64,000 nt of DNA from Candidatus Pacearchaeota archaeon (GCA_027021195.1 JALUUW010000003.1:4843-68842); one strand, 5' to 3'. Counted from the first letter of the stretch, positions 1,717-21,775 are shown. Translations and numbers: made by a program. The notes: generated from the sequence alone by a model not told the origin.

Positions 1717-1793
1717 CGAGGGAGAGTTAAATATAAAATATATTTTGACCATGGAAGAAAAATAGGGTATGGGAAGCTAAAAAAAGAGCAGAT

Positions 1794-2372: not shown

Positions 2373-2390
2373 AATAAAATATGGTAATTC

Positions 2391-3416: not shown

Positions 3417-3623
3417 TAATTTTTAACAGAGGTAAAACTTTAAATATTTATTGGATTCCCTCTAACAACCCCTTCATTCAAAATAAAAGAAAAAGCCATT
3501 ACAGATATGACTATGATGCTAATTTGAATTAAGGACAAGCAAACCTTCGGCCCTTTTTTTGGGATGGGTTAATGAAAACAATGGCATTTATTCTTGTTTA
3601 TGGGTATTTACTAAGAATAATGG

Positions 3624-3839
3624 CTAAGGAAAACAGCCTAATTTTTCATGTGCTTTTATTAAAAAATCCCTGAAATCTTTTTTGCTTTCCCATACAGGAT
3701 TTAACTTGTTCCTGATTAAATCAAAATCTATCTTCTTTAATCTTCTAATCTCTGCTAATTCACTTATCATTCTTTCGTACTTTTCTTTTGATATTTTTGC
3801 CATTTCCATAATAGCTAAATGGGGCTGATATTTATACAA
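3624..3839 (-). CDS. hypothetical small protein (71 aa), last gene of the rSAM operon
   Basis: ORF lies 23 nt downstream of the HExxH gene on the same strand. No recognisable motif. Confidence 0.3.
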   Translation of the reverse strand: MYKYQPHLAIMEMAKISKEKYERMISELAEIRRLKKIDFDLIRNKLNPVWESKKDFRDFLIKAHEKLGCFP

Positions 3840-3862
3840 TTTTCTAAATAAAACAGGGAATC

Positions 3863-4531
3863 TTATATCTTAATTCTTTTAACATATTCTATACATTCAT
3901 TAATTAGAGGAATTATATCTGGATTATGCTTCCACGTTTCCATTACTCTCTTTCTTAATTCTTTATGTTCAGCATAGCCTTTATCTTCAACAAACCATAG
4001 ATCTCTACACTCTAAATTTAAGATTGCAGTTAAAGACTCATTAACATACTCTATTTCTCTAAACCCTAGCTGATTTCTAATTAAAGGCAAATGTGTTTTT
4101 TCCATCTGTAAATGCATTAATTCATGTCCACATGTTCTTAAATTTTGCAACAGAGGTCTTCGAATTGAGACCATGAAAGAATCCTCCTCCACATTATAAG
4201 GACATCTTCCAGCAGTTGTAATATATGCATTAAATTCATTTGAATATATTTTGTGTTTGGTAATTTTTTCTAACCTTTCAAAAAACCTGTTATTTATTTT
4301 TCCCCAAGAGTTCTGCAATGTTTCTAAAAAGATGTCTAAATGGCCTGAAGAATATAATGGTTGAATATACTGTTCAATCTCTTCCCTACATTCTTCAAAT
4401 TTTCTATTTTTCCACCTCTGTAGGACTGACCCTCTTTCTAATTCATTCTCCCATGGATGCTCGTAGTTGCTAGTTTCCCATATATTCCAAAGGTCTTTTT
4501 CCTTATCAAACTTAAAAATTACTTTTGACAT
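3863..4531 (-). CDS. HExxH metallopeptidase-like protein
   Basis: CGHELMHLQ motif with downstream acidic residues (REIEYVNE). Lies 16 nt downstream of the MTase gene. Confidence 0.4.
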   Translation of the reverse strand: MSKVIFKFDKEKDLWNIWETSNYEHPWENELERGSVLQRWKNRKFEECREEIEQYIQPLYSSGHLDIFLETLQNSWGKINNRFFERLEKITKHKIYSNEFNAYITTAGRCPYNVEEDSFMVSIRRPLLQNLRTCGHELMHLQMEKTHLPLIRNQLGFREIEYVNESLTAILNLECRDLWFVEDKGYAEHKELRKRVMETWKHNPDIIPLINECIEYVKRIKI

Positions 4532-4547
4532 ATTCTTTTTTTGAAGG

Positions 4548-5072
4548 TTAAGCTTTTTGTTTATTTTTTAATAGTAATAAAATAACATTATGTTTATGGG
4601 GGGGCAAATTATCATGCTCTTCAATGGGGGTCTCATACATTCCTTCCTTCATTATTTCCCAATCAGAATATAGGTTTTTTAATTGTTTTAATGAAGGATA
4701 AAACCTATTTTGTGCATTTCTTGCCATAGGGTCTTTATCTGAAAAACAGATGATAAAAGTATGTCCTTGCTCAGAGGTATGTGTTTGTATCTTTTTTAAA
4801 ATATTTTGTGCAGTTACCTTATCTAAAAAATGCAAAACTAACGAAGCAATTATTAAGTCATATTTCTCTTTGAATTCAAAATTTGTTATATCTTCATTAA
4901 AGAATTTAAAATTTTTCTGGGAGATTTCCATAGGTCTTTTATCTACTCCAAGAACTTTTACGCCTTGTTTGGCAAATCTGAGAGATTTATGCCCTTTCCC
5001 ACAACCCAGATCCAAAACATTTTGAGGCTGTAGTTCTTTAAGATATTCTTTGACTTTATCCCTTATTATCAT
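4548..5072 (-). CDS. class I SAM-dependent methyltransferase (TehB-like, Methyltransf_11/25)
   Basis: VLDLGCGKG motif I. Post-I acidic residue. DLIIASLVLHFL motif II/III. Confidence 0.75.
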   Translation of the reverse strand: MIIRDKVKEYLKELQPQNVLDLGCGKGHKSLRFAKQGVKVLGVDKRPMEISQKNFKFFNEDITNFEFKEKYDLIIASLVLHFLDKVTAQNILKKIQTHTSEQGHTFIICFSDKDPMARNAQNRFYPSLKQLKNLYSDWEIMKEGMYETPIEEHDNLPPHKHNVILLLLKNKQKA

Positions 5073-5108
5073 TTATTAATTCTTTAAGTTTATTTTATTT
5101 AATTCTTT

Positions 5109-6170
5109 CTAATCTTGTGAGCTTCCCTGCACATATTCTTTAAAACACATAGGGTCTTTGGCCATATAATCTCCTGTTACTGCATAAGCAATTGCCCTAC
5201 ATCCTCTGCAGTGCACCACTTTATCACAAAGAGTATTCTCCCTCATTTTATTCAAATCTCTTAAATTTTGCATTACCTTGTTCTCTAAAATTAAATTACC
5301 TATTCCGTCACTTATGCGACCTATTTTAATAGGAAGTCTTCTACAAGGATAAACAGTTCCGTCCGATAATATTGAAAGCATTCTAAATCCTGCAGAACAC
5401 CCCCAAAGATATTTATTTTGCTCCTTTGCTGTTTTTATTACTTCGTTTTCTTTTTCCAATATTTGCCAAAGAACATCAGATTGAAGGACATTAATCTTAT
5501 CTCTATATTTTTCATTTAGTCTTTCAGTTTCTTTAACCATCTCGTAGATTTCTTTAGCATTAATAAATTCAGGATCTTTAATTCCTAAGTTTGAATCTGG
5601 ATTATAAGTTTTAAAACCCACTTTTTTAGCTCCTGCTAAAATTGCATTTTGGATAACATCCTCAAACTCTTTTTTATTAGACTGCATAAGAGTCATGGCT
5701 ACTGTAACATTTAAGCCTTCTTTTGAAGCATTTCTTATCCCTTCAATTGCCATATCATATGCAAAATCTTTTCTCCTAATTTTATTATGTGTGCGCTTAG
5801 ATCCATCAAGAGAAACTTGTATTGCTTCAACTTTTTGCTCCAAAAGTTCTCTAGCTTTTTTAGGAGTAATTAATGTGCCATTAGTTAACAAATTTGTTAT
5901 AACTTTTTTCTTACAAGCATATTCTAAAATTTCAAGATGATCTTCCCTCATTAAAGGATCTCCTCCCGAAATTGCGATTCTGGGTATCATCTCCCACCTT
6001 TTTGCTGTCTCTGCTAAATCATCTATCATTGATTTTACTTCATTTAAACTCATTAAATTATCATCTTGGATGTGGTCTACATTCCCTTCGTTGTTATGAT
6101 AACAATGGGAGCATTTAAGATTACAATCATTTGTGGAATCCCCTTGAATATATAAGTGTCTTTTAGCCAT
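5109..6170 (-). CDS. radical SAM / SPASM-domain enzyme
   Basis: CNLKCSHC Cx3Cx2C motif at residue 16 with no N-terminal RRE-like extension. ISGGDPL. C-terminal SPASM cysteines (CSAGF...YPCRR...CDKVVHCRGC). Confidence 0.8.
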   Translation of the reverse strand: MAKRHLYIQGDSTNDCNLKCSHCYHNNEGNVDHIQDDNLMSLNEVKSMIDDLAETAKRWEMIPRIAISGGDPLMREDHLEILEYACKKKVITNLLTNGTLITPKKARELLEQKVEAIQVSLDGSKRTHNKIRRKDFAYDMAIEGIRNASKEGLNVTVAMTLMQSNKKEFEDVIQNAILAGAKKVGFKTYNPDSNLGIKDPEFINAKEIYEMVKETERLNEKYRDKINVLQSDVLWQILEKENEVIKTAKEQNKYLWGCSAGFRMLSILSDGTVYPCRRLPIKIGRISDGIGNLILENKVMQNLRDLNKMRENTLCDKVVHCRGCRAIAYAVTGDYMAKDPMCFKEYVQGSSQD

Positions 6171-8689: not shown

Positions 8690-10177
8690 TCAGCTGTTAT
8701 ACCCCTCAACTCCGATAAAATTTGTTGAGCCTCCGCAGTCTCCAAGAGAGATACATGCATTATTCATCTCTTTCTTCCATGACTCTGAAAGGCACTCACA
8801 GTTTTTCACGCACTTTTCCTTTCCAGTCAGCCCTTTTTCAAATACTACTGTGCATTGAGTGTCTGCTATAGAGCATAAAGATTCAGCCTCAGTGTCCTCT
8901 TCCCAAAAATTAAATCCAGGGGCATTTTCAGGAACGCATCCTATTGAAGACCATTTGCAGTCTCTCCTGTCTTTATTCTCGCAGTCTTTTTTGGTTGTTT
9001 GAGAGGAGCAGTCCTGCCATTTATTTACTCTGCATGCAGCTGTCTTAAATCCGTCAATGTCGTCCTGGACACAGACTTCCTGCCTGAAATCCGCGCACGG
9101 CTCTATGCTTACCTCTCCGTTATAACACACCAGCCTGAAATGCCTGCTTCCAGGAAGGCTTTTGTCTGTCCCGCTTGCATCTGCGCACCATGTTTCCCCA
9201 TGCTTATATTTTTTTCCAAGATAATTGCAGCTTAAGTCTCTGCAGATGTTGTCTCCGTAAGTTGGCTTTACTCTGTCCTTTCCTCTTTCATAGGATTTGC
9301 AGGTGCTTCCCAAAAAATAATCGCAGTTGCCGCACCCGGATGATCCGGCATTTCCGTCTGCTGAACTAAATCCGCAGCTCTTTTCCTTTCCATAAGCCTT
9401 TGTCCAGTAGTTTTTGTCTTTTATTTTTGAGGCATCATAAATATTCGCAGGATTTCCGCAGCTGTCAACAAAGAAGACTTCATCTCTTCCTTCAATGCAC
9501 GTTGTTCTTTCTGAGGGTCCGCAGTTTGTTGCAAGCTCTTCTGCAGAGCATAAAAGCCCCTCGTAAAACTCTACATTGGAATCAGGAGAGCTCGCTTCCA
9601 TTTTTCGGCACTCTCTTTTTGTTATGAACTTGCATGTTCTTGCCATCTCTTCAGGATCCTCAAACACACATGCTCCTTTGACATCTGAAGTAGCAGAAGC
9701 AATGCATTCTATCTCGCTTCCTATGTTTGTCCTGAAGTCAGTTTCGAGCCCGTAAAGGGACGAAAGCCTTTTGCATCTCGTCTGCGTTACAAAAGCAGCC
9801 TGGTCTCCTATCAGGCAGCACCCAAGAGAGCATTGGGGGATTTCATCCATCTTCCCTTCGTTCCATACCCCTCCTGAATCCTCGCATACTTTTTGAGGAG
9901 TGTTTTCCATGCAGGTTCCCTCCTGGCTGTCTATGCAGGTTCCAAGCTTGCAATAAGAGGTCGCCTCGCAGGAAGTCGGGACTTTTCTGTATGAGCTGTC
10001 GCATTTATCCTGAGGAGCGTTCTGGCACCATGCATTGTTTACTGTTTTTTCGCAGCAGTATGAAACCTCTCCGACAGCTGAGACAATTGCAATATATGCT
10101 ATGACTGCCAAAAAAATCAGCGCAACTCCTGCTGCTAACCCTTTTTCAAAAACATTATTTGTCTTGTTTCTTCCCAT
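8690..10177 (-). CDS. Cys-rich secreted or surface protein with a class III-like N-terminal signal (FEKG|LAAGVALIF)
   Basis: N-terminal charged segment, then KG and a hydrophobic stretch. More than 50 Cys. N-terminal domain is paralogous to the 1247-aa protein (CC..T....C...(K/E)LSS(L/F)YG). Confidence 0.5.
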   Translation of the reverse strand: MGRNKTNNVFEKGLAAGVALIFLAVIAYIAIVSAVGEVSYCCEKTVNNAWCQNAPQDKCDSSYRKVPTSCEATSYCKLGTCIDSQEGTCMENTPQKVCEDSGGVWNEGKMDEIPQCSLGCCLIGDQAAFVTQTRCKRLSSLYGLETDFRTNIGSEIECIASATSDVKGACVFEDPEEMARTCKFITKRECRKMEASSPDSNVEFYEGLLCSAEELATNCGPSERTTCIEGRDEVFFVDSCGNPANIYDASKIKDKNYWTKAYGKEKSCGFSSADGNAGSSGCGNCDYFLGSTCKSYERGKDRVKPTYGDNICRDLSCNYLGKKYKHGETWCADASGTDKSLPGSRHFRLVCYNGEVSIEPCADFRQEVCVQDDIDGFKTAACRVNKWQDCSSQTTKKDCENKDRRDCKWSSIGCVPENAPGFNFWEEDTEAESLCSIADTQCTVVFEKGLTGKEKCVKNCECLSESWKKEMNNACISLGDCGGSTNFIGVEGYNS

Positions 10178-10178
10178 T

Positions 10179-10967
10179 TTACACTAAAACTTCATCAACT
10201 CCGTATCCAGGAGGCCATGCAAGGCTTCTTGAAGCAAACTGGAATTTATTTCCGCTGTTGAGGTCTGTTAAAATATAGATTGTAGTGCCGTCGGATTGTT
10301 TTTTCTTCTCAACTTTCAAATCACGGTAATAGTTCATGTAGGTTGTTGTTTCAGCATCTCCGTATCTTGTTTCCCATGCAATTATGCTGTTTGCAATACT
10401 TAATAGTTCATAAAGATTATTGTTCAGGACTACTCTTAAATTGTCATAGCTTTCTGAAGATTCTTTTGTGAGAGTTAAGGAGTTGCTGAATGTAGCGACA
10501 ATTCTTTTTGGAAGCAGCTCAACATCAGGCTCTCCCTGCTTTAAGCTTACTTTATACCCTCTTTTCTCATAACTCTCTTTCATGGAATCAAAGCACTCTT
10601 TTGCCTTTCCTCTTATGTCTTTTTTTATCTCAGACTCAATGTGCTTTTTCAGCATTGGCTGCTGCACCACGCATGTTTTGTAGTACTCCTCAGTGTAGCA
10701 AAGATATTCTACTTTTTCATCATTATACAAAAAATAGTGTTCTGGCTTCAGGCTGCCACCCTGCATTGAAAGCCTTTCAACAGAATTTTTAATATCCTCT
10801 TCCATGCAGTTTTGAATAAATGCAGACGGATTCATGCTCTCGAGCCACAAATTAGACCCTATCTTTGGATAAAACAAGTAAGATAAAACACCTATAATCA
10901 CAATCATTATTGCAATTATGATGAAAATCGTCACTTGCCCCTTTCTTTTCCATGATATTTCCCGCAT
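10179..10967 (-). CDS. type IV pilin-like protein (class III signal peptide KRKG|QVTIFIII)
   Basis: Basic N-terminus, KG-Q cleavage-like site and a hydrophobic helix. Paralog of the 14771..15601 protein (SMQGG, YLCYT, PML..H). Start overlaps the downstream gene's start region. Confidence 0.45.
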   Translation of the reverse strand: MREISWKRKGQVTIFIIIAIMIVIIGVLSYLFYPKIGSNLWLESMNPSAFIQNCMEEDIKNSVERLSMQGGSLKPEHYFLYNDEKVEYLCYTEEYYKTCVVQQPMLKKHIESEIKKDIRGKAKECFDSMKESYEKRGYKVSLKQGEPDVELLPKRIVATFSNSLTLTKESSESYDNLRVVLNNNLYELLSIANSIIAWETRYGDAETTTYMNYYRDLKVEKKKQSDGTTIYILTDLNSGNKFQFASRSLAWPPGYGVDEVLV

Positions 10968-11025
10968 TTTTATTTAAAGGAAATCTGATTTATAAATGTT
11001 GATAGTTTTTAATGTTTTTAATAAA

Positions 11026-14000
11026 TTAAATTGATTCCGGCCTTAATATAATTGCACAGCCAGGATTTGTATTTCCTCCAAGATCTTCGCATTTGATGTA
11101 ATGCCTCTTTCCAGACTCCCACTCGCTGGTATGGGTTCTTGAAAATACATCTGTCATAGGCTTTGCATCCTCTCCTCGAATGTCAAATCCGCATCCATTA
11201 AAACTGTAATAGCATTTTGCATCTTCGTCTGTTATTACCTTTAACTCTCCCTCGCTGTAAGCCCTTACTATTTTTGGAGCTTCAGTGTCAAGCTCTAAAG
11301 TGAATACTGCATTTCCATAAGCAGTATTTCCTGCATCGTCTTCGCACTTTACATAAATATTGTAGTCTCCTTTCATCATAGTGTTGAAGTTCTGCTTATG
11401 CCTCCTGGAGAAGCTCTCAAAAAACAGAGTCATGTCATCATATCCTGAGAAACTGTAATAACAGGAAGACTTTCCATTCCTCGCCCCTCCGGAAGTCTCA
11501 ACTTCAAGGTCTACTGAGATTGGCTCGAACCATCTCTTGATTTTTCCCTGAGGGGTTATTGAGGTTATGTTAAGATTTGTCTCTGAAACATAGAGTGTAT
11601 AAACAAAATCCTCTTCATTTACATTTCTTGAAGTGTTCTCTGGAGGAAGCCATGGCTGGTCTTTGCACCTGATGTAAAAATTGTTTTCTCCTTCTGCAAG
11701 CCCTTTAAGAGTGGTGCTGCACTGCCATCCCAACAGCTCCCTCTCTGTTATTCCTGTTTTGCAATCCATTGAATTGCTCATTTCCTCATAGCTTTTTCCG
11801 CTTTCAGTGCTGTACCTGCATTCAGCAGGCTCACTTAGGTAAATCTGAAGAGGCGTTTCTGTAACATTATATTTCAGGAAACTTTCATCCTCTGGAACTG
11901 CAACTGTTCTTGAATGGTCTACAGCAGTTGTGTCTGGCCCTGAGTTAATGCAGAAATTCACCGTATACTCGTCAATATTGTAGTTTCCATGATAGTCCTT
12001 GCACTTAACATACATATTCATGTTTCCAAACATCTCTCTTATGTCTCCTGCAACATCATAGACGCTTAAGCTGTCCAGGCTTGGCATTGAAAATGAAAAA
12101 GTGTGGTTGAGAGTGAATGCATTTTGCTCAACAGGGTATCCTCTCATTTCGTCATATTCTGTTTTCTGGAAATCAAACTTGCACTGCGCAAATTCATCTG
12201 TTTTTAGGCTGAAGCTGACAGGAGTGAATTCAGGGATGCAGTTTCCGTTTTCCCTTCTTATCTCAACTCTTTTTGCATCTTCGTTATTGAACTTGTAGCC
12301 CTCGTCAATATCTCCTGCAGAAATTACAGGAGGATTGCTTTCATAAGGGATGCTCTCGCAGACAGGGTTTTCTGTTTCTTCATTAAGGATTCTGCATGCC
12401 TGCCCAAGGCTCTCGCATCTGTATCTTGTGCAAGGCATTCCTTTTTCAGCAAGCTCGTTGCATCTTTTGCAATTCTCTCCTCCTGCAGGAGCCTGCCATG
12501 GCATGCATGTAAACTCAACAACCCTTTCTTTTGTCTTTCCCCATCCAACAACTATGACATATACCATTATTATTACTGCTGCTGCCAGTGCGTATGTTCC
12601 AAAATTCAATCCCCATTTGAGCCATCCGACCTTCATTAGGCCAAGTATTCCTCCTGCAACCCCTCCTGCTACTGTCAGGACTGTTGCTGCATTTCCAGAC
12701 CTTCCCAAAGACTGGGCAATAAATGCTCCTGCAACTGTTCCTATTGCAAACCCTGCTGCTGCCCATGCGAATGCTCCTATGGATGTATATGTGGTAGAAA
12801 CAACTGCTTCAGATCCTGCAAAAATTGTCTTTGTTCCCAATAATGATGTTGTTGTTTCATAAGCTCCATAAGTGTAGGTGGTAGTTCCTATTCCCAAATG
12901 GCTAATGGCCATAATCAAGGTTCCAGCTCCTCCTGAAACTTCTCCAAGCTGCTTTATTACAGCCTGTATTTTATCCTCTTTAGGCTTTTTGCCAGAATTA
13001 CCGCTTATTGAAGAGATGTAATCATCAATTTCCTGGGGCTTTACATACTGGCCTTCTACAGGATCTGCATAATCCTTATATCTTTCCCATGAAACACTTG
13101 GAGACCGCGTTACTTTAATGTTATCGCTTCCCTCTCCAATATAATTGATATAGCTTCCGCAATCTCCGAGGCTGATGCAAAGGTCATTCATCTGCTCTGC
13201 AAAAACTCCTTTCTCGCAATTGCAGTTCTCAATGCACTCCCACTTTCCTCTTGAGTTTTTTTGGTATATGACAGTGCATTTTTGATTTGCCATTGCGCAT
13301 ATGCTGTCTGCAATAGAGCTTTCCCTTTGCCTGAACCCTCTTGGATATCTTCCAACGCAGACATCAAAGCTGAACCCGTCATCAATATTAATGTTTTTAA
13401 TCATGCAGTGCTTGTTTTTATTGCATTTTTCAGCCATGTTTCCCTGTGAATTGTAATCAAGGCACTTTGTAGCTTCGTTCACAACGCATGAGGCTACTGA
13501 AAAGCTTTTTCCGTTTTCCTCTATTTCTGATTCTGTGCAAAGCCCCCCTCTATAGTCACTGCATCCCTCTGTCTTTACTTCTCCATCAATACATATTTTT
13601 CTCCAGTGCCTGCTTCCTGCAGGATCTTTCCCTTCTCCTATATAAGAGTCATAAGCACACCAGCTCTCCCCGTTCTTTCTCTCTTTTCCGCCTGTCTCAG
13701 GAGATGCAGGGCAGTTTTTGTTTTTGCATATATAATCTCCGTCTTTTGCTTTTTTTCCTCCTGCCTCGTCTGAAGGCGCGCACATGCTTCCAAGGAAATA
13801 ATTGCAGTTTCCGCACTCTTCTGACTGAATATTGTCTGAATCAGGGTTGCAGCTTTCCTGTTTGCTTAACACCTTTCCGTTATTCCACGAAAAATCCCTG
13901 TCTGAGGAATAGATGTTTTCCCTGTTTCCGCAGGAATCAATCCAGTAAATCTCGTCTTTTCCCTCAATGCAGCTTATGCTTGCCTGCCTTTCACATTCAA

Positions 14001-14769
14001 CCCCCATTTCTTTAAATTCCGGATTTGAACATAGATGGTCTTTGTAAAAGTCTCCCTGAATGCTGAGGCATCTTGATTCTGTTGTAAATTCGCATCTGCC
14101 TCCTTCAAGGATGCATGCCCCTTCAAACTGGCTTGCAGAAAGAGCAAGGCATTCAAATTCTGTTTCAAGGTCTCTAAAGTCTTTTTTAAACCCGTAAAAA
14201 GATGAAAGTTTTTCACACCTTTTTTCTGTAACAAACTGCGCATTATCTCCCAAAACACAGCATCCTTTCTGGCATTCGCTTACTAAACATGATTCTTCAT
14301 TTTTCCATATTCCTCCTCCAGACTCGCATTTTTTTCTGGTGGATTTTGTTGTGCATAGCCCCTCATCTTCGTCAATGCAGCATCCTATCTTGCAGTCAGC
14401 AACTTCATCGCATTTTGTCGGAAGAGGATTGTCGCAGCTTTCAGTATCAAAAAACCCGACATCCTGGCATATTGCTCCGCTTTTTGTAACAGGGCAGCAT
14501 TTCCATGACTCTTCTTCTGCAGAAACAATTCCTATCTGTTTTATTGATAAAAATCCCACTAAGAGGCTTGCTCCTGCAGCAATGAGATTCCCAAGACTGT
14601 CTTTTCCTTTATCTCTTTTTATTATAATGGAGCTGCTGTCAGGCTGGCTGCTCATTCCTATAACATAGCTGGTTGCAGGACTCATATTAACCAGAAGGAA
14701 AATCTGGAACATAACAACAGCTAGCAAGCTTAGTTCTGTTTTTCTTTCCCTGATTTTTATTGACTTCAT
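11026..14769 (-). CDS. giant (1247 aa) Cys-rich surface protein with a central Gly/Ala-rich multi-TM region
   Basis: N-terminal hydrophobic segments. Cys-rich ectodomain homologous to the 8690..10177 protein. Residues ~600-730 have several hydrophobic G/A-rich helices. C-terminal Cys-rich beta-rich domains. Confidence 0.5.
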   Translation of the reverse strand: MKSIKIRERKTELSLLAVVMFQIFLLVNMSPATSYVIGMSSQPDSSSIIIKRDKGKDSLGNLIAAGASLLVGFLSIKQIGIVSAEEESWKCCPVTKSGAICQDVGFFDTESCDNPLPTKCDEVADCKIGCCIDEDEGLCTTKSTRKKCESGGGIWKNEESCLVSECQKGCCVLGDNAQFVTEKRCEKLSSFYGFKKDFRDLETEFECLALSASQFEGACILEGGRCEFTTESRCLSIQGDFYKDHLCSNPEFKEMGVECERQASISCIEGKDEIYWIDSCGNRENIYSSDRDFSWNNGKVLSKQESCNPDSDNIQSEECGNCNYFLGSMCAPSDEAGGKKAKDGDYICKNKNCPASPETGGKERKNGESWCAYDSYIGEGKDPAGSRHWRKICIDGEVKTEGCSDYRGGLCTESEIEENGKSFSVASCVVNEATKCLDYNSQGNMAEKCNKNKHCMIKNINIDDGFSFDVCVGRYPRGFRQRESSIADSICAMANQKCTVIYQKNSRGKWECIENCNCEKGVFAEQMNDLCISLGDCGSYINYIGEGSDNIKVTRSPSVSWERYKDYADPVEGQYVKPQEIDDYISSISGNSGKKPKEDKIQAVIKQLGEVSGGAGTLIMAISHLGIGTTTYTYGAYETTTSLLGTKTIFAGSEAVVSTTYTSIGAFAWAAAGFAIGTVAGAFIAQSLGRSGNAATVLTVAGGVAGGILGLMKVGWLKWGLNFGTYALAAAVIIMVYVIVVGWGKTKERVVEFTCMPWQAPAGGENCKRCNELAEKGMPCTRYRCESLGQACRILNEETENPVCESIPYESNPPVISAGDIDEGYKFNNEDAKRVEIRRENGNCIPEFTPVSFSLKTDEFAQCKFDFQKTEYDEMRGYPVEQNAFTLNHTFSFSMPSLDSLSVYDVAGDIREMFGNMNMYVKCKDYHGNYNIDEYTVNFCINSGPDTTAVDHSRTVAVPEDESFLKYNVTETPLQIYLSEPAECRYSTESGKSYEEMSNSMDCKTGITERELLGWQCSTTLKGLAEGENNFYIRCKDQPWLPPENTSRNVNEEDFVYTLYVSETNLNITSITPQGKIKRWFEPISVDLEVETSGGARNGKSSCYYSFSGYDDMTLFFESFSRRHKQNFNTMMKGDYNIYVKCEDDAGNTAYGNAVFTLELDTEAPKIVRAYSEGELKVITDEDAKCYYSFNGCGFDIRGEDAKPMTDVFSRTHTSEWESGKRHYIKCEDLGGNTNPGCAIILRPESI

Positions 14770-14770
14770 T

Positions 14771-15601
14771 TTAAAGCCCAGGAGGTATTATGCAGCTTCT
14801 CACTGCAAACCTGAATTTTTCTTTGCTGTTTTCATGCCTGACAGTATAGATTGTTTCTAAATCGCTTGTCTTGAATCTGTCTATATTGAATTGGGGATTA
14901 ATAATCATAAAGCCAAGATAGTCAAAATTGCAGAACCTTGCCTCTTGACTCAAAATCTCCTGCACAACAGCTGCAATATCATAAAATCTGCTTGGAATAT
15001 TCGCTTCAAGGTTTTCTTTTTTTGAGCTCTCCTCTGTTCTTGTAAGAGTAATCTCGCTGTCTGTTTTAATAATCACTCTCTTTGAGATTAAGTCAACTTC
15101 AAATCCCCTGTAATCCATGCTGACTTCATAATTCTGTTTTTCAAGATTGTTTTTTAATTCATCAAAACATACTTCCATGTCCTCTGCAATATAATTTTTT
15201 ATTTCTTTTTTTAGATGGCTCATCAGCATTGGCTCGTGATTTATGCAGGGAACATAATAATTTTGAGTATAGCATAAATAAGAGATATTTACAGGGTCTT
15301 CACCTTCAAACCTGAAGGTTTTGTAGAGCTCTGGTTCAATATATCCTCCCTGCATGGAGATTGTGCCAATAGCTTCCTTGACCTTGCCTTCAATACACGA
15401 GCTTAAAAAAGCTTCAGGATTTTTTTCAGGGCTCTTTCCTGTTTTTATAGGAGCTTCTCCCCTAAAGAATAAAAACGATGAAATTGCAACAACAACAATC
15501 ATGCCTGCAATTATGAAAATAGTAACCTGCGAGCGTTTTGCCTTTGGAAAAGCCCTTTTATTAAACAGCAGGCCTAAGGCACGAGTTCCTCTTTTTTTCA
15601 T
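14771..15601 (-). CDS. type IV pilin-like protein (class III signal AKRS|QVTIFIIAG)
   Basis: Paralog of the 10179..10967 protein. Stop overlaps the start of the giant gene. Confidence 0.45.
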   Translation of the reverse strand: MKKRGTRALGLLFNKRAFPKAKRSQVTIFIIAGMIVVVAISSFLFFRGEAPIKTGKSPEKNPEAFLSSCIEGKVKEAIGTISMQGGYIEPELYKTFRFEGEDPVNISYLCYTQNYYVPCINHEPMLMSHLKKEIKNYIAEDMEVCFDELKNNLEKQNYEVSMDYRGFEVDLISKRVIIKTDSEITLTRTEESSKKENLEANIPSRFYDIAAVVQEILSQEARFCNFDYLGFMIINPQFNIDRFKTSDLETIYTVRHENSKEKFRFAVRSCIIPPGL

Positions 15602-15706
15602 ATTTACTTAAATATTTTGCTGCTTATAAATCTTGTTGGATATGCTGTCTTTGTCTTCTGTCCAGACTCTCCCCTGTTATTTTCCGGATATTGATTTCCC
15701 TTCAAG

Positions 15707-16588: not shown

Positions 16589-18202
16589 ATGCAGGAAAAT
16601 CTCAAAAATTCATCAGGGGAGCAAAGCTTCAAAGAGCAGAGGATAAGGAAGATAACTCATTTGTATTACTCAAGGCCGGACATACAGAAAGCAATTTTTG
16701 AATTCTCCAAAAACAGGGAAATTTCACCAAGATATTTTGAAGGCTTCGGCAAAAGGCCTGACAGCTTCCAGTATAAAGGAGATATATTTGAGCTTGTAAA
16801 AAAAGGAGCGACATCCTTTCATTGCTCAGAGGAATTGTGGCAGGACCCTCTTAAAATAACCACTGGAATGACAGAATCCCAGTCAAATGAGCTAAGAATC
16901 GGCTGGGACTTATTAATTGATATTGACTGCAAGTGGTTTGATTATTCCAAGCTGGCGGCAAAAGCAATAATTGGAGTTTTGAAAGATAATGGAATTAAAA
17001 ATCTGGGATTGAAGTTCTCAGGAAGCAAAGGATGGCACATCTTAATTCCCTGGAAATCTTTTCCAAAAGAAATAAATGGGGTCAGTTCATCAAATCTTTT
17101 TCCAGAGCTTCCAAGAAAAATTATAAATTATATAAGATTCCAGTCAGAAAAAAAACTAAAGGAGATGCTTCCTGAAGATTTTGAGGAGCAGTTTAAAGGA
17201 GTGAATATTAAGAGAGGGATAAAATGCAACAGGTGCAGTGAAATTGCCAGCCAGTATGTTTATGCTGTTTTTTCCTGCAGAAAGTGCGGAAGAAAAGAAT
17301 ACAAAAAATTCCATTCAAAAGGCCAGATGAAAAAATACAGCTGTCCTGAATGCGGGGCTGAATTTAAAATAGAGAGCCAACTTACCTATCATGAGTGCCA
17401 TCAGTGCAGGATAAATTCAAAATATAACCCAGATGATTTCTCGCAAACAATACAGGAGGATTTGTTTGATTTAATGGGGCTGGATATTATTCTGGTTTCT
17501 CCAAGGCACTTGTTCAGGATGCCTTATTCCCTCCACGAGAAAACAGCACTTGCAAGTGTAGTAATTGATGAGCAGGATATTGACGGTTTTCAGTTAAAAG
17601 ATGCCAGCCCTATGAAAATCTCTTCAGAAAAAATAAAAAATTTTTCCCCTGTCTCAGCAGAAGAAGCTGAAGCTGAAGCTCTTGTGAGAGAGGCTCTTGA
17701 CTGGACAAAAGACCTTCAGATTGCAAGAGGGGAAACAGAAGAAAAAATAACGGGAAAATATGCAGAGTACAAGCCGGTTAAGCTTGACAATCTTTCAGAG
17801 CAGAATTTTCCGCCATGCATAAAAAATATTCTAAAAGGAATTTCAGACGGAAAAAAGAGGGCTTTGTTTGCTTTAATAAATCTTTTCAGAAGCGTAGGAA
17901 TGGACAAGGAAAAAATGGAGAATGAAATTTATGAGTGGAACAAAAAAAACAATCCGCCGTTAAAAGAAGGGTATATTAAATCCCAGCTTTCATGGGCTTA
18001 CAGAAAAAAGCCAATAATGCCCCCTAACTGCAAGGAATTTTATCAGGGAATTGCAGCATGCCAGCCAGATGATTTGTGCCTCAACAAAGGAATAAAGAAT
18101 CCAGTTAATTATGTTGTAAGAAGAAGCATTTCAAAAAGAAAAGGGCATAGAAAGTCCAGGACAAATGGAAACAGTAAGGATAATTTTAAAAAGAAGAATT
18201 GA
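16589..18202 (+). CDS. priS: DNA primase, fused PriS catalytic domain plus PriL-CTD-like Fe-S domain (single-chain archaeo-eukaryotic primase)
   Basis: AEP motifs GWDLLIDIDC and FSGSKGWHIL. Zn-ribbon cysteines. C-terminal half carries four conserved Cys (FPPC, PNC, AAC, DLC), typical of the PriL C-terminal 4Fe-4S domain. Confidence 0.7.
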   Translation: MQENLKNSSGEQSFKEQRIRKITHLYYSRPDIQKAIFEFSKNREISPRYFEGFGKRPDSFQYKGDIFELVKKGATSFHCSEELWQDPLKITTGMTESQSNELRIGWDLLIDIDCKWFDYSKLAAKAIIGVLKDNGIKNLGLKFSGSKGWHILIPWKSFPKEINGVSSSNLFPELPRKIINYIRFQSEKKLKEMLPEDFEEQFKGVNIKRGIKCNRCSEIASQYVYAVFSCRKCGRKEYKKFHSKGQMKKYSCPECGAEFKIESQLTYHECHQCRINSKYNPDDFSQTIQEDLFDLMGLDIILVSPRHLFRMPYSLHEKTALASVVIDEQDIDGFQLKDASPMKISSEKIKNFSPVSAEEAEAEALVREALDWTKDLQIARGETEEKITGKYAEYKPVKLDNLSEQNFPPCIKNILKGISDGKKRALFALINLFRSVGMDKEKMENEIYEWNKKNNPPLKEGYIKSQLSWAYRKKPIMPPNCKEFYQGIAACQPDDLCLNKGIKNPVNYVVRRSISKRKGHRKSRTNGNSKDNFKKKN

Positions 18203-20064
18203 CTCTATCAGACATGGGAAAAAGAGTTCAAGCGTCATGTCTTTTAGTGATATCTCTGCTTTTTGTAATTCTATCAGCATCTTTTATGGCTGCAGAAGGC
18301 AACTCAACAAGTTCTGATGCGGACAAAATCAATAAAGCATATGGGTGTCTTGAAGATAAAGTAAAGGGAAAATGCCCCTCTCTTTCTCTGGAAGAGAGAA
18401 TTTTCTCTCTATTAGCTATAGGAGAGTGTAAAGAAGAGCTTCTTTCTAATTCAAAAGACGAGGAGTGCTGGCCAAAATCTGATTGCAAGGTTAAGCCTAC
18501 AGCTCAGGCTATTCTGGCCCTTAACGGAGCAAACAAAGATACAAGCAGGGCAGAAGAGTGGCTTTTATCTCAGAATTCCACTCCTTCTGAAATTGACTGG
18601 TTTCTGCAGATTGAAAGCGCAGAAGCCACAACATGTAATGTGGATTACTCAGGAAATTCTTATCAAGTATCTATTGACGCTGAAAAAAAACTGAGCTCTA
18701 ATGCAGGAAGTTGCCTCAGTCTTTATGGAGGGGATTACTGGTTTAGAATCTCTCCTTCATGCTATGATAACGAATTCGCAATTTCATGCGACAAGCCTTT
18801 TCTTACAACGCTTTTGTTTAAGAAAAAAACCTCTTCAACAATTCATGTCTCTCAAAAAACAAACTCTGCTGCATCAGAAGGGACAACAATAGAGAAGGTT
18901 GGCTCTCTTTGCTTTTCAAAAGGAGGCTCCTGTGATTATGAGGGGAGCTTATGGGCTGCTTTGGCACTAAACTCACTGGGTAAAGATGTTTCATCATTTA
19001 TGCCTTACCTTATAACAATGGCTGATGAGAATGGCAAGTATCTTCCGGAGTCTTTTTCCTATATTCTGACAGGATATGAGGATTTTCGCAATGAATTGCT
19101 CTTAAAACAAAAAAGCAACAAGTACTGGATGGAATCAGGGGACAAGTTTTATGATACTGCTCTTGCATTGTATCCGTTGCAGTATGAAACTCCTGAAGAA
19201 AAGACAAATGCAGTAAACTGGCTTTTGGAATCCCAGGACAATGAAGGGTGCTGGGAAGGCAACATAAGAAATACTGCTTTTATTCTTTATTCTGTCTGGC
19301 CAAAAGACTTTGCTGTTGATGAGGAGGATGAAAGAGTTGATTGCGAGAGTGCAGGATATTATTGCATGTCTGAGATAAACTGTGAAGGAGAGGTTCTTCC
19401 GGACTATTCCTGCTCAGGAGTTTTTAAGTGCTGCGACACCCCTATCCCTCTGGAAACCTGTGAAGAAATGGGCGGACAGGTCTGCAACTCAAATCAGGCA
19501 TGCGTTGAAGGAAGAGTTGAAGACTCTCCAGACCTTGATTTTGGAGAGGCTTGCTGCCTGGGTGGCTTTTGCGAAGACTCTGCCCCCGTTGAAGAAGAAG
19601 TGTCAGAATGCGAGTCATACGGAGGGGTGTGCAGAACAAACGGGTGTTTTGATGATGAAGAGGAATCTTCCTATTCCTGTGACTTCACTACTGACTCCTG
19701 CTGCACTGTAAAAATTTCTCCTAAAAAAAGCTATTGGTATGTCTGGGTGCTGTTGTTTTTAATAGGGCTTGTAGCTATTGGCATAGTTTTCAGGGATAAA
19801 TTGAGGCCTTATTGGTTTAGGCTGAAGTCAAAGTTTAAAGGCAAAGGCTCTGGAACTGGAAGCCCTGCTCCAAGAAGGCCAGGGTTCCCTCCTCCGTCTT
19901 CAAGAATTCCTTTAAGAAGGAGAATTATGCCAAGAAGAATAATTCCTCCGCAGCAGACTCCTCAAAATATTCCAAGACAATTTCGCCCTTCTGTTCAAAA
20001 GAAACAAAAATCAAGCAAGGAGCTTGATGAAGTTCTTAAAAAGCTCAGGGAAATGGGAAATTGA
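18199..20064 (+). CDS. secreted surface protein with a Cys-rich membrane-proximal module, C-terminal TM anchor and Pro-rich tail
   Basis: Sec-type signal peptide. Cys-rich region (CCLGGFC). TM helix YWYVWVLLFLIGLVAIGIVF. PRRPGFPPPSS tail. Confidence 0.45.
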   Translation: MTLSDMGKRVQASCLLVISLLFVILSASFMAAEGNSTSSDADKINKAYGCLEDKVKGKCPSLSLEERIFSLLAIGECKEELLSNSKDEECWPKSDCKVKPTAQAILALNGANKDTSRAEEWLLSQNSTPSEIDWFLQIESAEATTCNVDYSGNSYQVSIDAEKKLSSNAGSCLSLYGGDYWFRISPSCYDNEFAISCDKPFLTTLLFKKKTSSTIHVSQKTNSAASEGTTIEKVGSLCFSKGGSCDYEGSLWAALALNSLGKDVSSFMPYLITMADENGKYLPESFSYILTGYEDFRNELLLKQKSNKYWMESGDKFYDTALALYPLQYETPEEKTNAVNWLLESQDNEGCWEGNIRNTAFILYSVWPKDFAVDEEDERVDCESAGYYCMSEINCEGEVLPDYSCSGVFKCCDTPIPLETCEEMGGQVCNSNQACVEGRVEDSPDLDFGEACCLGGFCEDSAPVEEEVSECESYGGVCRTNGCFDDEEESSYSCDFTTDSCCTVKISPKKSYWYVWVLLFLIGLVAIGIVFRDKLRPYWFRLKSKFKGKGSGTGSPAPRRPGFPPPSSRIPLRRRIMPRRIIPPQQTPQNIPRQFRPSVQKKQKSSKELDEVLKKLREMGN

Positions 20065-20443: not shown

Positions 20444-21775
20444 ATGAAAAAAAGCATAATTATTCTTGCAGTTTTATTACTGGCAATTCAATTTGCCTCA
20501 GCAGTTGAGTTTGACATGAAATCAGAATTCAGTCAGGGAGAAACAATTATTGCCAGAGTTTCTGGAAATTTCATAGACCCTGTTCTCAGGGAAAACATAC
20601 ATTTTTACAGGGGCAATGTGCCGACTTCAATAATCTATGATGTTGCAAGAATAAGCGGAGAGTTTTACATTTATGCTATTCTCTCTGGAAAAAAAGAGGG
20701 AAATTATTCAATAGTGATAGAGAATGCAAAATACATGAAAGGCTCTCAGGTAGTTGAAGATGCAATAACAAAAAACTTCTCAATAACCAACAGTACAGCA
20801 GATTTTTCAGTAGATCCCGGGTTTATTATAACAAAAGGGAAATTTTTTGTGCAGGTTCAGAATCTGAAGGATTATAAAATAAATGTCAATGCAAAAATAC
20901 TTGCAGATTCAGGAAACAATGGCGGAGGGCTTTTTGATTCTTTGTTTGGAAACAATGGTGAAACAAATGTTTATGAGAAATCAGTTGCTCTGAAATCTGG
21001 CGAGATTAAAAAGATTGATTTTGAATTGGCAAATCTAACTGGCTCAGAACTGACAACTCTTGAAGTAAGCAGTGAAAATCTAAAATACAGCATCCCTCTT
21101 TATATTATAACGAATATGACTGGCGAGGAAGGGGAAAAAGAAAAGGGGATTAAACTTAAATTTGATCCTTCTGAATTAAATGTATCAATCCCTACTTCTT
21201 CAAACACTACAAGAATCATCTATCTGCGAAATTCCGGAGAAGTGGCAATAGAGAATATTTCTTTATCAGTGTCTGATTCCCTGAAGGATTATCTTTCTCT
21301 TTCAGCATATGATATTAATGGGCTTGAGGGGAACTCAAGTGTAAAAATAGAGGTTTATCTTTCTTCAGGAGATATAGAAAGAACTTTTGAAGGGCAGATA
21401 ACTGCAAAAGCTCCTTCAGCAGCTGAAGGAAATGACGTCTATGCTTATGCTGCTGTTTTTTTGAATTTTGTAAAAGGGTTTAAGCCTTTGGACAATGAAA
21501 CAGGAGAGATAAACTATGGAAAAGAAAATACCTGTTCGGAAATGAATGGTGAAATCTGCGCTGAAAATATGGAGTGTTACGGAGACCTAAAATATGCTTT
21601 AGATGGTGTTTGTTGTTTGGGAAGCTGCAGGGAGCTTAAGGAGAGCCCTACAGGAAAAATAATCGGATGGTTAATAATAGTTCTTGTTGCAGTCTTCCTT
21701 ATATGGTTTTTCCGGTTTAAATACAAGGAGGCAAAAAAAGAAGTAAATCTTTTGAAAATTGCCAAGAGAAAGTGA
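20444..21775 (+). CDS. secreted surface protein with a C-terminal Cys motif (CCLGSC) and TM anchor
   Basis: Signal peptide MKKSIIILAVLLLAIQFASA. C-terminal CSEMNGEICAENMECYGD..GVCCLGSC followed by a TM helix. Confidence 0.4.
   Translation: MKKSIIILAVLLLAIQFASAVEFDMKSEFSQGETIIARVSGNFIDPVLRENIHFYRGNVPTSIIYDVARISGEFYIYAILSGKKEGNYSIVIENAKYMKGSQVVEDAITKNFSITNSTADFSVDPGFIITKGKFFVQVQNLKDYKINVNAKILADSGNNGGGLFDSLFGNNGETNVYEKSVALKSGEIKKIDFELANLTGSELTTLEVSSENLKYSIPLYIITNMTGEEGEKEKGIKLKFDPSELNVSIPTSSNTTRIIYLRNSGEVAIENISLSVSDSLKDYLSLSAYDINGLEGNSSVKIEVYLSSGDIERTFEGQITAKAPSAAEGNDVYAYAAVFLNFVKGFKPLDNETGEINYGKENTCSEMNGEICAENMECYGDLKYALDGVCCLGSCRELKESPTGKIIGWLIIVLVAVFLIWFFRFKYKEAKKEVNLLKIAKRK

What the first reader, a model, noticed from the sequence alone, without database searches (positions are those of the whole stretch)
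8690..15601. Tandem duplicated two-gene module: type IV pilin-like protein followed by a giant Cys-rich surface protein
Two consecutive minus-strand pairs (15601-14771 plus 14769-11026, and 10967-10179 plus 10177-8690). In each pair the small protein carries an archaeal class III signal (KRKG|QVTIFIII or KRS|QVTIFIIAG) and its stop overlaps the start of a Cys-rich ectodomain protein. The large proteins have class III-like N-termini and paralogous N-terminal Cys modules. This looks like a pilus or adhesin-type surface system, plausibly used for host-cell attachment by a DPANN-like symbiont, and not a described family.
Basis: partly seen in the sequence, partly recalled or inferred. Interest (0 to 1): 0.7.

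Follow-up and report, generated by a model that had tools for sequence, protein, structure and literature searches.

The report
Conserved pilin-like surface module, duplicated
Two old copies of a previously undescribed cell-surface gene module of Pacearchaeota-type DPANN archaea, each pairing a small protein that has a type IV pilin-style N-terminus with a large cysteine-rich exported protein; it is probably part of a pilus-like attachment apparatus, but no function has been shown.

Summary
The four minus-strand ORFs exist as described: S1 is 276 aa, G1 1,247 aa, S2 262 aa and G2 495 aa. The paralogy is real (S1/S2 E=1e-45; G1 N-terminal part/G2 E=1e-88). The duplication is old, because S1- and S2-type genes form clean orthologue groups across 80 related genomes.

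S1 and S2 carry a family-wide [KR][KR][G/A/S]|QVTIFII junction typical of archaeal class III (prepilin) signals. The large proteins do not: G2-type proteins have ordinary Sec signal peptides, and G1 has a Lys-rich hydrophobic anchor with no G/A at -1.

G1 combines a 45-Cys N-domain of unknown fold, a Gly/Ala-rich hydrophobic segment and four to five Ig-like domains. G2 is the Cys-rich domain alone.

In relatives the unit is larger. The S2-type and G2-type genes are followed by a separate gene for the Ig-like part and by four more small families with class III-like N-termini. It usually sits beside PCNA and primase. This window lacks those extra genes.

No protein matches Pfam, NCBIfam or PDB sequences. 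No prepilin peptidase or pilus ATPase lies in the window or within 8 kb of the module in 80 loci.

Most likely these are non-core subunits and an adhesin of a type IV filament-like surface structure. A stand-alone membrane-anchored complex is a serious rival.

The parts
14771..15601 (-). S1: 276-aa small protein with a leader, a class III-like junction AKRS|QVTIF, a ~23-aa hydrophobic helix and a ~230-aa ectodomain containing 6 Cys
   Evidence: ORF. Paralogue of S2, E=1e-45. The S1-type orthologue group is 31/31 consistent. A strict FlaFind-like motif is present in 19/31 orthologues; most of the rest have Ser at -1, as here.
15533..15601 (-). S1 leader (residues 1-23, MKKRGTRALGLLFNKRAFPKAKRS) ending at the putative class III cleavage junction S|Q
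   Evidence: Read directly from the sequence and found by the motif scan. Ser at -1 is a minority state in the family (6 of 115). Cleavage is inferred, not shown.
11026..14769 (-). G1: 1,247-aa fusion protein made of an N-terminal anchor, a Cys-rich domain, a hydrophobic Gly/Ala-rich segment and an Ig-like array
   Evidence: ORF. 619 homologues, 39-60% identical among those listed, most over nearly the full length. AF2 model has mean pLDDT 80.7.
14659..14769 (-). G1 N-terminal Lys/Arg-rich leader and hydrophobic segment (residues 1-37, ..RKTELSLLAVVMFQIFLLVNMSPATSYVIG); a Sec-type signal or anchor, not class III
   Evidence: Family N-termini lack G/A at -1, and 1/36 fit the FlaFind-like pattern.
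13135..14508 (-). G1 Cys-rich N-domain (residues ~88-545, 45 Cys), paralogous to G2
   Evidence: 37% identity to G2, E=1e-88. About 40 invariant Cys columns. pLDDT is mostly 80-95. No PDB sequence match.
12547..12789 (-). G1 hydrophobic Gly/Ala-rich region (residues 661-741), predicted as three helices
   Evidence: Hydropathy and AF2 helices. The number of hydrophobic segments in this linker ranges from 0 to 5 among orthologues.
11029..12516 (-). G1 C-terminal domain (residues 752-1247): a CxPWQxP Cys-rich knot followed by four to five Ig-like beta-sandwich domains, 21 Cys in all
10179..10967 (-). S2: 262-aa small protein with leader MREISWKRKG, junction G|QVTIFIII, a hydrophobic helix and an alpha/beta ectodomain with 4 invariant Cys
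   Evidence: ORF. 1,784 homologues; the 120 listed are 63-74% identical. 4,418 clusters at 50% identity match the profile. AF2 mean pLDDT 81.5.
10938..10967 (-). S2 leader (residues 1-10) ending at the putative class III cleavage junction KG|Q
   Evidence: Among the 119 close homologues with the motif, -1 is G in 107, +1 is Q in all 119 and +5 is F in 118. Matches the FlaFind-like pattern.
8690..10177 (-). G2: 495-aa exported Cys-rich protein (43 Cys) with a Sec-type signal peptide ending ..IAIVSA|VGE and no membrane anchor after it
   Evidence: ORF, hydropathy. Orthologue N-termini are plain Sec signal peptides, and 1/75 fit the FlaFind-like pattern.
14767..14773 (-). S1-G1 junction TAAAATG: stop, 1-nt spacer, start
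   Evidence: Read. Translational coupling is inferred.
10175..10181 (-). S2-G2 junction TAAAATG, identical in arrangement to the S1-G1 junction
   Evidence: Read.
15623..15630 (-). TTTATAAG, a possible archaeal TATA box 22-29 nt upstream of the S1 start codon
   Evidence: Read. This is inference only: the intergenic DNA is AT-rich and no archaeal promoter tool was available.

Best explanation
The four genes are two ancient paralogous copies of a cell-surface module found in Pacearchaeales/Woesearchaeales-type DPANN archaea.

Proposed mechanism (inferred unless marked otherwise):
1. Each small protein (S1, S2) inserts into the membrane with its short basic leader inside the cell.
2. A class III (prepilin-type) signal peptidase encoded elsewhere clips it at [KR][KR][G/S]|Q. 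This leaves a ~23-residue hydrophobic N-terminal helix carrying a ~220-aa alpha/beta ectodomain.
3. The Cys-rich partner is exported by the Sec pathway. G2 has no anchor of its own, so it is probably retained on the surface by binding S2, whose gene abuts it (TAAAATG).
4. G1 carries the same Cys-rich domain fused through hydrophobic hairpins to a stalk of four to five Ig-like domains.

In related genomes the unit also contains a separate gene for the Ig-like part and four more small proteins with class III-like N-termini. The whole set therefore most likely supplies the accessory, minor-pilin-like subunits and the adhesin of a type IV filament-like surface structure. That structure would be assembled by machinery encoded elsewhere and used for contact with other cells or surfaces.

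Shown here: the gene structure, the paralogy, the conserved N-terminal junctions, the domain architecture and the synteny. Inferred: cleavage, surface location, S-G binding, filament assembly and adhesion.
For: Paralogy and age of the duplication:
- S1/S2 E=1e-45 and G1/G2 E=1e-88.
- Orthologue groups are clean, 31/31 and 74/74.

Class III-like junction in the S family:
- Among the 119 close homologues with the motif, -1 is G in 107, +1 is Q in all 119 and +5 is F in 118.
- Among the 115 (of 150 divergent) representatives that match the motif, -1 is G in 88, A in 21 and S in 6; the median leader is 9 aa.

Same type of junction in other families of the operon in relatives:
- The four extra small families are labelled cl3, cl4, cl6 and cl7 here.
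- cl4, cl6 and cl7, which showed no cross-hits with one another or with S beyond a few members, and cl3, which is cross-matched by cl4's profile, all carry this junction.
- Of 161 ORFs with [KR][GAS]Q plus a hydrophobic stretch among 923 ORFs in ~1 Mb of related loci, 159 belong to these operon families.
- One cl4 member is labelled 'UPF0333 family' by JGI. From my own memory this label corresponds to the class III-signal family; I did not verify it.

Export and surface location of the G proteins:
- G2-type proteins have Sec signal peptides.
- About 40 Cys columns are invariant.
- Three orthologues fuse the Cys-rich and Ig-like domains with no hydrophobic segment between them, so both domains lie on the same side of the membrane.

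Coupling and conservation:
- Both pairs have the junction TAAAATG.
- The order S, Cys-rich gene, Ig-like gene recurs in 80 species-level loci.
- Median identity to the window's proteins is 60% for S2 and 50% for G2, against 64% for primase, so purifying selection is strong.
- TFF systems (type IV filament systems) occur in some DPANN archaea, and pilin genes can be split from their machinery (bioRxiv 10.64898/2026.04.22.720090).
Against: - No curated pilin or class III N-terminal model (TIGR02537, and Pfam, which includes PF07790 and PF04021) matches S1 or S2 even at E<=1.
- No prepilin peptidase, assembly ATPase or platform gene lies in the 64-kb window, in the contig flanks, or within 8 kb of the module in 80 loci.
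- S1 in this window has Ser at -1, a minority state.
- S2 is nearly as conserved as primase, which is unlike typical fast-evolving pilins and adhesins.
- This genome's locus lacks the separate Ig-like gene and the four small pilin-like genes.
Confidence: 0.5

Rival explanations
1. The module forms a stand-alone, membrane-anchored envelope complex such as a surface coat, an anchoring lattice or a cell-contact patch, and no filament is built. In this reading the hydrophobic N-termini of the small proteins act as permanent membrane anchors, whether or not a class III peptidase trims them. Sulfolobus sugar-binding proteins behave this way. The complex would serve a core envelope function.
For: - S2 and G2 are almost as conserved as primase.
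- The module is syntenic with PCNA and primase in 49/80 loci rather than with any pilus machinery.
- The AF2 model of S2 shows the transmembrane helix separated from the ectodomain by a flexible linker.
- G1 has its own hydrophobic segments.
- The S2 ectodomain has no convincing pilin fold.
Against: - A plain anchor does not explain a conserved [KR][KR]G|Q junction with an invariant Gln in five families of one operon, four of them with no detectable similarity to one another.
- N-glycosylation sequons are not enriched in S or G (0-0.4 per 100 aa, against 2.3 in the neighbouring 443-aa protein). This argues against a classical S-layer glycoprotein.
Confidence: 0.3
2. The small protein is a dedicated membrane-bound assembly or folding factor for the Cys-rich protein, for example a chaperone or scaffold needed for its many disulfides. 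It would not be a structural subunit.
For: - One S gene sits immediately upstream of one Cys-rich gene, with a coupled junction, in both modules and across genomes.
- The S ectodomain is very highly conserved and includes invariant polar motifs such as HIESEI, GDAETT and ASRS..WPPGYG.
Against: - S has no thioredoxin-like CxxC motif. Its four invariant Cys are spaced 36, 9 and 26 residues apart.
- S matches no enzyme or chaperone family in Pfam, NCBIfam or PDB.
- The idea does not explain the prepilin-like junction shared with the other small proteins of the operon.
Confidence: 0.1
3. The module belongs to a virus, provirus or other mobile element, for example as entry or fusion proteins.
For: Only weak chance-level Pfam hits to viral envelope families, with E 0.004-0.05 and scores below the cut-offs.
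Against: - No S relative was found among 2.9 million IMG/VR viral contigs.
- The chromosomal position beside PCNA and primase is fixed across dozens of species.
- Orthologue groups are clean.
- The surrounding genes are housekeeping genes.
Confidence: 0.02

Closest known systems
Minor-pilin operons with an associated non-pilin adhesin in bacterial type IV pili (Pseudomonas fimU-pilVWXY1E with PilY1; recalled from established knowledge)
   Same: Several small proteins with prepilin-type N-termini are encoded together with one large Sec-exported non-pilin surface protein. The genes lie apart from the assembly ATPase. The presumed role is a tip or priming complex that presents an adhesin.
   Different: There is no sequence or fold similarity. 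The large protein has a disulfide-rich domain and Ig-like repeats, not a vWA domain and beta-propeller. The junction is K-K-G|Q with no Glu at +5. The small protein is ~260 aa and unusually conserved. Two paralogous modules are present. No machinery genes have been identified.
Modular type IV pilins such as Streptococcus sanguinis PilB and the PilA/PilC minor-pilin complex (PMC8179133 and PMC9934059, listed)
   Same: A prepilin-type N-terminus is followed by a large functional ectodomain grafted onto the pilin helix. Such subunits give a filament its adhesive properties.
Archaeal class III signal peptide proteins (archaeal pilins and archaellins recognised by FlaFind, TIGR02537, PF07790 and PF04021; also non-pilin substrates such as Sulfolobus sugar-binding proteins)
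   Same: A short basic leader, G/A/S at -1, Gln at +1 and a ~20-residue hydrophobic stretch. Several such genes are clustered together.
   Different: None of the curated N-terminal models is matched. The ectodomain is an alpha/beta fold, not the Ig-like sandwich typical of archaeal pilins. The proteins are twice the usual pilin size.
Predicted archaeal S-layer or secretion-associated membrane proteins with extracellular Ig-like domains and 2 or 4 TM segments (arCOG02884/arCOG02487 group, Makarova et al. 2015, PMC5898192), and the DPANN-specific 'NEQ255' cluster noted as adjacent to arCOG02487 (PMC6393860)
   Same: Membrane-associated proteins with extracellular Ig-like domains and a few TM segments, encoded next to a small secreted DPANN-specific protein.
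   Different: The Pfam scans of G1 and of an Ig-like-part (GC) orthologue returned no family above threshold. From memory this group is Pfam DUF1616. The NEQ255 sequence could not be retrieved, so identity with the S family is an untested lead. The Cys-rich domain is not described there.

Membership tests
Archaeal type IV pilin / class III signal peptide proteins (small proteins S1, S2) | A short positively charged leader, then [KRDE][GA] at -2/-1, then a ~20-residue hydrophobic stretch (FlaFind-type pattern) | tested here: met
   S2 has KRKG|QVTIFIIIAIMIVIIGVLSYLFY. The pattern holds in 56/73 S2-type and 19/31 S1-type orthologues. Position -1 is G in 88, A in 21 and S in 6 of the 115 divergent representatives that match the motif. 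S1 in this window has Ser at -1, so it fails the strict pattern and is borderline.
Archaeal type IV pilin / class III signal peptide proteins (small proteins S1, S2) | A match to the curated N-terminal domain models (TIGR02537 arch_flag_Nterm; Pfam PF07790 Pilin_N; PF04021 Class_IIIsignal) | tested here: not met
   These families do not hit S1 or S2 at E<=1, nor the 40 family members at E<=0.05. The models are short, and HMMER's filters may lose weak matches.
Archaeal type IV pilin / class III signal peptide proteins (small proteins S1, S2) | A class III signal peptidase (Peptidase_A24: PibD/FlaK/EppA) in the same genome | not testable with these tools
   No polytopic GxGD-type protein is present in the window, in the contig flanks or in 80 related loci. 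The rest of the genome is not available.
Archaeal type IV pilin / class III signal peptide proteins (small proteins S1, S2) | An assembly ATPase (FlaI/PilB family) and a platform protein (FlaJ/TadC/PilC) in the locus or genome | tested here: not met
   The large window ORFs scanned are aminoacyl-tRNA synthetases, eRF1, a topoisomerase, CDC48 and similar genes. No Walker-A ATPase longer than 350 aa lies within 8 kb of the module in 80 loci. Presence elsewhere in the genome was not testable.
Archaeal type IV pilin / class III signal peptide proteins (small proteins S1, S2) | A pilin fold: the N-terminal helix is followed by a globular beta-rich domain that resembles solved pilins | tested here: inconclusive
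Archaeal type IV pilin / class III signal peptide proteins (small proteins S1, S2) | Clustering with other prepilin-like genes | tested here: met
   In relatives four more families with [KR][KR][GAS]|Q junctions follow on the same strand. This is not met inside this window.
   1/36 G1-type and 1/75 G2-type orthologues fit the pattern. G2-type N-termini are Sec signal peptides ending in ISA or VSG.
PilY1/PilC-type pilus-associated adhesins | A vWA-like N-domain and a C-terminal beta-propeller | tested here: not met
   No such Pfam hits were found. Fold searches return only Ig/FN3-type matches. The resemblance is one of gene context and not of homology.
Bacterial/archaeal Ig-like domain surface proteins (Big, FN3 or cadherin-like arrays) | Tandem beta-sandwich domains recognised by fold and by family HMM | tested here: inconclusive
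Archaeal S-layer glycoproteins | An abundant N-glycosylated surface protein, and a match to known S-layer families | tested here: not met
   S and G have 0-0.4 sequons per 100 aa, the same as cytoplasmic proteins. There are no family hits. Abundance was not testable.

The most novel reading that the evidence does not exclude
The unit of a small pilin-like protein, a Cys-rich protein, an Ig-like protein and four further small pilin-like proteins is a new, lineage-defining surface organelle of Pacearchaeales/Woesearchaeales. It would derive from, but no longer depend on, classical type IV filament machinery. It would act as the essential host-contact or uptake device of these reduced archaea. 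That would explain why it is about as conserved as, and syntenic with, replication genes.
Probability: 0.15. Interest if true: 0.8.

Novelty: new variant of a known kind. Interest (0 to 1): 0.55.

Why it matters
Pacearchaeota and Woesearchaeota are among the most abundant uncultured archaea. They are thought to depend on other cells, yet the molecules that make that contact are unknown.

This work defines a concrete candidate. The gene set is lineage-wide and strongly conserved. It is entirely unannotated. It combines prepilin-type small proteins with a disulfide-rich exported domain and an Ig-like stalk. More than 300 species-level genomes carry a relative of the small protein, and its profile matches 4,418 protein clusters at 50% identity.

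The result gives structural biologists and metagenomic or proteomic studies specific targets:
- the cleavage site of the small proteins;
- the complex between the small and Cys-rich proteins;
- surface localisation.

It also shows that the locus in this window is a reduced version of a larger operon.

Tried and rejected
Sequence and family searches that found nothing:
- Pfam and NCBIfam scans of all four proteins, of the neighbours and of the extra operon families gave only sub-threshold noise.
- PDB sequence and profile searches for S, G1 and the Cys-rich domain were negative.

Structure searches:
- The AFDB50 library was unavailable.

Ideas rejected:
- Viral or mobile origin: there is no relative in IMG/VR.
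- S-layer glycoprotein: sequons are not enriched.

Searches for missing parts:
- The window and the contig flanks contain no separate Ig-like gene, none of the four small pilin-like families, no PibD-like gene and no pilus ATPase.

Leads left unresolved:
- The link to the DPANN 'NEQ255' cluster (PMC6393860) could not be tested because the sequence was not retrievable.
- Literature searches found no description of this operon.
Full report
**Labels.** S1, S2, G1 and G2 are the four window proteins defined in the next section. GN is the Cys-rich part (the N-terminal part of G1, and all of G2). GC is the Ig-like part (the C-terminal part of G1; a separate gene in many relatives). cl3, cl4, cl6 and cl7 are four families of small proteins found next to the module in related genomes.

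**Observation**

Four consecutive minus-strand ORFs are present exactly where stated:
- S1: 14771-15601, 276 aa
- G1: 11026-14769, 1,247 aa
- S2: 10179-10967, 262 aa
- G2: 8690-10177, 495 aa

The paralogy holds statistically.
- S1 and S2 share 35% identity over 215 residues, E=1e-45.
- G1 residues 50-545 align with G2 residues 1-489 at 37% identity, E=1e-88.
- G1 has 66 Cys and G2 has 43.

Both small-to-large gene junctions read TAA-A-ATG. The genes therefore abut with a one-base spacer and do not overlap.

**Organism and distribution**

Every named relative is labelled Pacearchaeota, Woesearchaeota or Nanoarchaeota, which are DPANN archaea. The rest of the window is housekeeping: PCNA, a primase, aminoacyl-tRNA synthetases, eRF1, a topoisomerase and two CDC48 genes.

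- S2 has 1,784 homologues. The best 120 are 63-74% identical.
- A family profile matches 4,418 clusters at 50% identity, of which 533 have E<=1e-30.
- At least 303 species-level genomes encode a relative.
- G1 has 619 homologues; those listed are 39-60% identical, most over nearly the full length.
- None of these proteins has a name or a Pfam domain.

**N-termini**

Across 119 close S2 homologues the junction is essentially fixed:
- -3 and -2 are K or R;
- -1 is G in 107, S in 6 and A in 4;
- +1 is Q in all 119;
- +5 is F in 118.

Among the 115 (of 150 divergent) representatives that match the motif, -1 is G in 88, A in 21 and S in 6, with a median leader of 9 residues. This is the signature of an archaeal class III (prepilin-type) signal. 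In the whole window only S1 and S2 show it. S1 here has Ser at -1. That fails a strict FlaFind-like rule, but 19 of 31 S1-type orthologues have G or A.

The large proteins differ from this pattern.
- G2-type orthologues have classical Sec signal peptides, for example MKKILITIILGIFLVSMISA|VGE. Only 1 of 75 fits the class III pattern.
- G1-type proteins start with a Lys-rich leader and a hydrophobic stretch (..FQIFLLVNM..A.SY.I.Q) with no G/A at -1. Only 1 of 36 fits.

**Structure predictions**

S2 (AF2, mean pLDDT 81.5) has three parts:
- an N-terminal helix, residues 7-36;
- a low-confidence linker;
- an alpha/beta ectodomain with four invariant Cys.

G1 residues 48-1247 (mean pLDDT 80.7) show four regions:
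- a confidently modelled disulfide-rich N-domain;
- a disordered linker;
- three Gly/Ala-rich hydrophobic helices;
- a beta-rich C-terminal half.

**Comparative genomics changes the picture**

In 80 related loci I annotated ORFs with profiles built from the window proteins. The recurrent pattern is:

[S1][G1 fused] [S2][Cys-rich gene][Ig-like gene]

Many genomes carry only the second, split module. The unit is thus S + Cys-rich domain + Ig-like domain. In module 1 the last two are fused, which gives G1. In module 2 they are separate genes. The window has no separate Ig-like gene after G2; an Lrp/AsnC gene follows instead. None is present elsewhere in the window or in the contig flanks.

The two modules are old paralogues. 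All 31 small genes upstream of a fused G are closer to S1, and all 74 upstream of a G2-type gene are closer to S2.

Clustering all neighbouring ORFs showed four further small families downstream on the same strand:
- cl4: ~165 aa, in 38 loci, junction KK[GA]|QMxLSFGMIF
- cl3: ~313 aa, in 38 loci, junction KKG|FLQISFAWLF
- cl6: ~175 aa, in 33 loci, junction KK[GAS]|QMKIQQMAF
- cl7: ~165 aa, in 19 loci, junction KK[AGS]|QEEMVGF

Of 161 ORFs with a [KR][GAS]Q junction followed by a hydrophobic stretch, among 923 ORFs in about 1 Mb of related loci, 159 belong to the S, cl3, cl4, cl6 or cl7 families. Four of these families (S, cl4, cl6, cl7) show no cross-hits with one another beyond a few members; cl3 and cl4 are cross-matched by each other's profiles. 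Having the same processing-type junction on all of them in one operon is the strongest argument that they are substrates of one prepilin-type peptidase.

Separately encoded Ig-like proteins often begin KKG|ALALSQIIILIVG..., which is also pilin-like. The strict pattern is met in 12 of 50.

Upstream, PCNA lies on the same strand in 49 loci, and primase is usually adjacent.

**Topology**

Three fused orthologues (L022, L024, L028) have no hydrophobic segment between the Cys-rich and Ig-like domains. Both domains must therefore lie on the same side of the membrane. Three features indicate that this side is outside: the Sec signals, the conserved Cys and the Ig-like arrays. The odd number of predicted helices in G1, and the basic residues after the last helix, remain unexplained. 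The count of hydrophobic segments varies from 0 to 5 among orthologues.

**Conservation**

Median identity to the window's proteins across the same 46 genomes was as follows:

| Protein | Median identity |
|---|---|
| PCNA | 72% |
| primase | 64% |
| S2 | 60% |
| G2 | 50% |
| S1 | 46% |
| G1 | 40% |

S2 is unusually conserved for an extracytoplasmic protein. This argues for many fixed interaction partners and against a rapidly evolving host-specificity determinant.

**What is missing**

No prepilin peptidase, FlaI/PilB-type ATPase or platform protein lies in the window, in the contig flanks or within 8 kb of the module in 80 loci. The rest of the genome could not be examined.

Published surveys report type IV filament (TFF) systems in some DPANN archaea. 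They also note that pilin genes can be separated from the machinery genes (bioRxiv 10.64898/2026.04.22.720090). Archaellin expression has been reported in Woesearchaeota (PMC11606122). I found no paper describing this operon.

**Interpretation**

*Most likely reading (confidence about 0.5).* The window encodes two paralogous copies of the S plus Cys-rich core of a type IV filament-related surface apparatus.
- The S proteins are prepilin-like subunits.
- The Cys-rich and Ig-like proteins form the exposed, probably adhesive part.
- G2 has no anchor, so it is probably held by S2.

The nearest functional analogy is a minor-pilin operon with its non-pilin adhesin (PilY1), or the modular pilins of Streptococcus sanguinis (PMC8179133, PMC9934059). 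The resemblance is in organisation and not in homology.

*Main rival (about 0.3).* The same proteins form a stand-alone membrane-anchored envelope complex that never builds a filament. The high conservation, the replication-gene synteny and the lack of a pilin fold favour this view. The shared junction in several families with no detectable similarity to one another argues against a mere anchor.

*Other rivals.* A role for S as an assembly factor for the Cys-rich protein is possible (about 0.1). A viral origin is effectively excluded.

**Verdict**

The class III reading holds for the small proteins only. The module is an undescribed, lineage-wide DPANN surface system whose full form is larger than what this window contains. 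I rate it a new variant of a known kind, namely prepilin-type surface systems. It is of moderate to high interest, and its function has not been demonstrated.

Noticed in passing
window 48-6170 (both strands); contig flank in L084 1-3650: A cluster of three radical SAM/SPASM genes, two or three methyltransferases, a BSP-like peptidase, an S66 peptidase and several unannotated 41-59 aa ORFs. It could be a RiPP-type peptide maturation locus.
   Followed up: no
window 18199-20064 (+): A 621-aa protein with a Sec signal, 31 Cys, a C-terminal TM segment and a Pro/Arg-rich tail. Its start overlaps the primase stop by 4 nt. It is conserved next to primase in 19 of 80 related loci. The only Pfam hit is a chance-level match to squalene-hopene cyclase.
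   Followed up: partly
window 20444-21775 (+): A 443-aa protein with a Sec signal and a C-terminal TM segment. It has 10 N-X-S/T sequons (2.3 per 100 aa, five to ten times its neighbours) and is conserved in 17 loci. It is a better S-layer or glycoprotein candidate than the proteins of the finding.
   Followed up: partly
L005 8773-9126; L019 11725-12464; L007 10909-11211 and others: Small ORFs, some with nucleotidyltransferase-like motifs (a possible MNT/HEPN-type pair, judged by eye; no domain search was run), recur inside the operon of relatives, between the S2-type, Cys-rich and Ig-like genes (clusters 12, 14, 16 and 17).
   Followed up: no
L003 2166-3026 (+): A 286-aa protein between primase and PCNA in a related Pacearchaeota genome begins MKRRG|MSAIITSVIII, an archaellin/pilin-type N-terminus. 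TIGR02537 matches only at E=0.5. It is absent from the window.
   Followed up: partly
IMG/VR viral contigs (no loci kept): 42 stretches match the peptide patterns [RK][GS]Q[VI]TIFI or D[AS]ETTxYM but do not encode S relatives. One possibility, not examined, is that the N-terminal motif also occurs on other proteins.
   Followed up: no
window 16589-18202 (+): A 537-aa primase with only a faint DNA_primase_S hit, divergently oriented to PCNA. Its position is conserved in 36 of 80 related loci.
   Followed up: no
window 12547-12789 (G1 residues 661-741): The Gly/Ala-rich hydrophobic helices between the two ectodomains vary from 0 to 5 segments among orthologues. The count here is odd (three), which conflicts with both flanking domains being outside the cell.
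   Followed up: partly
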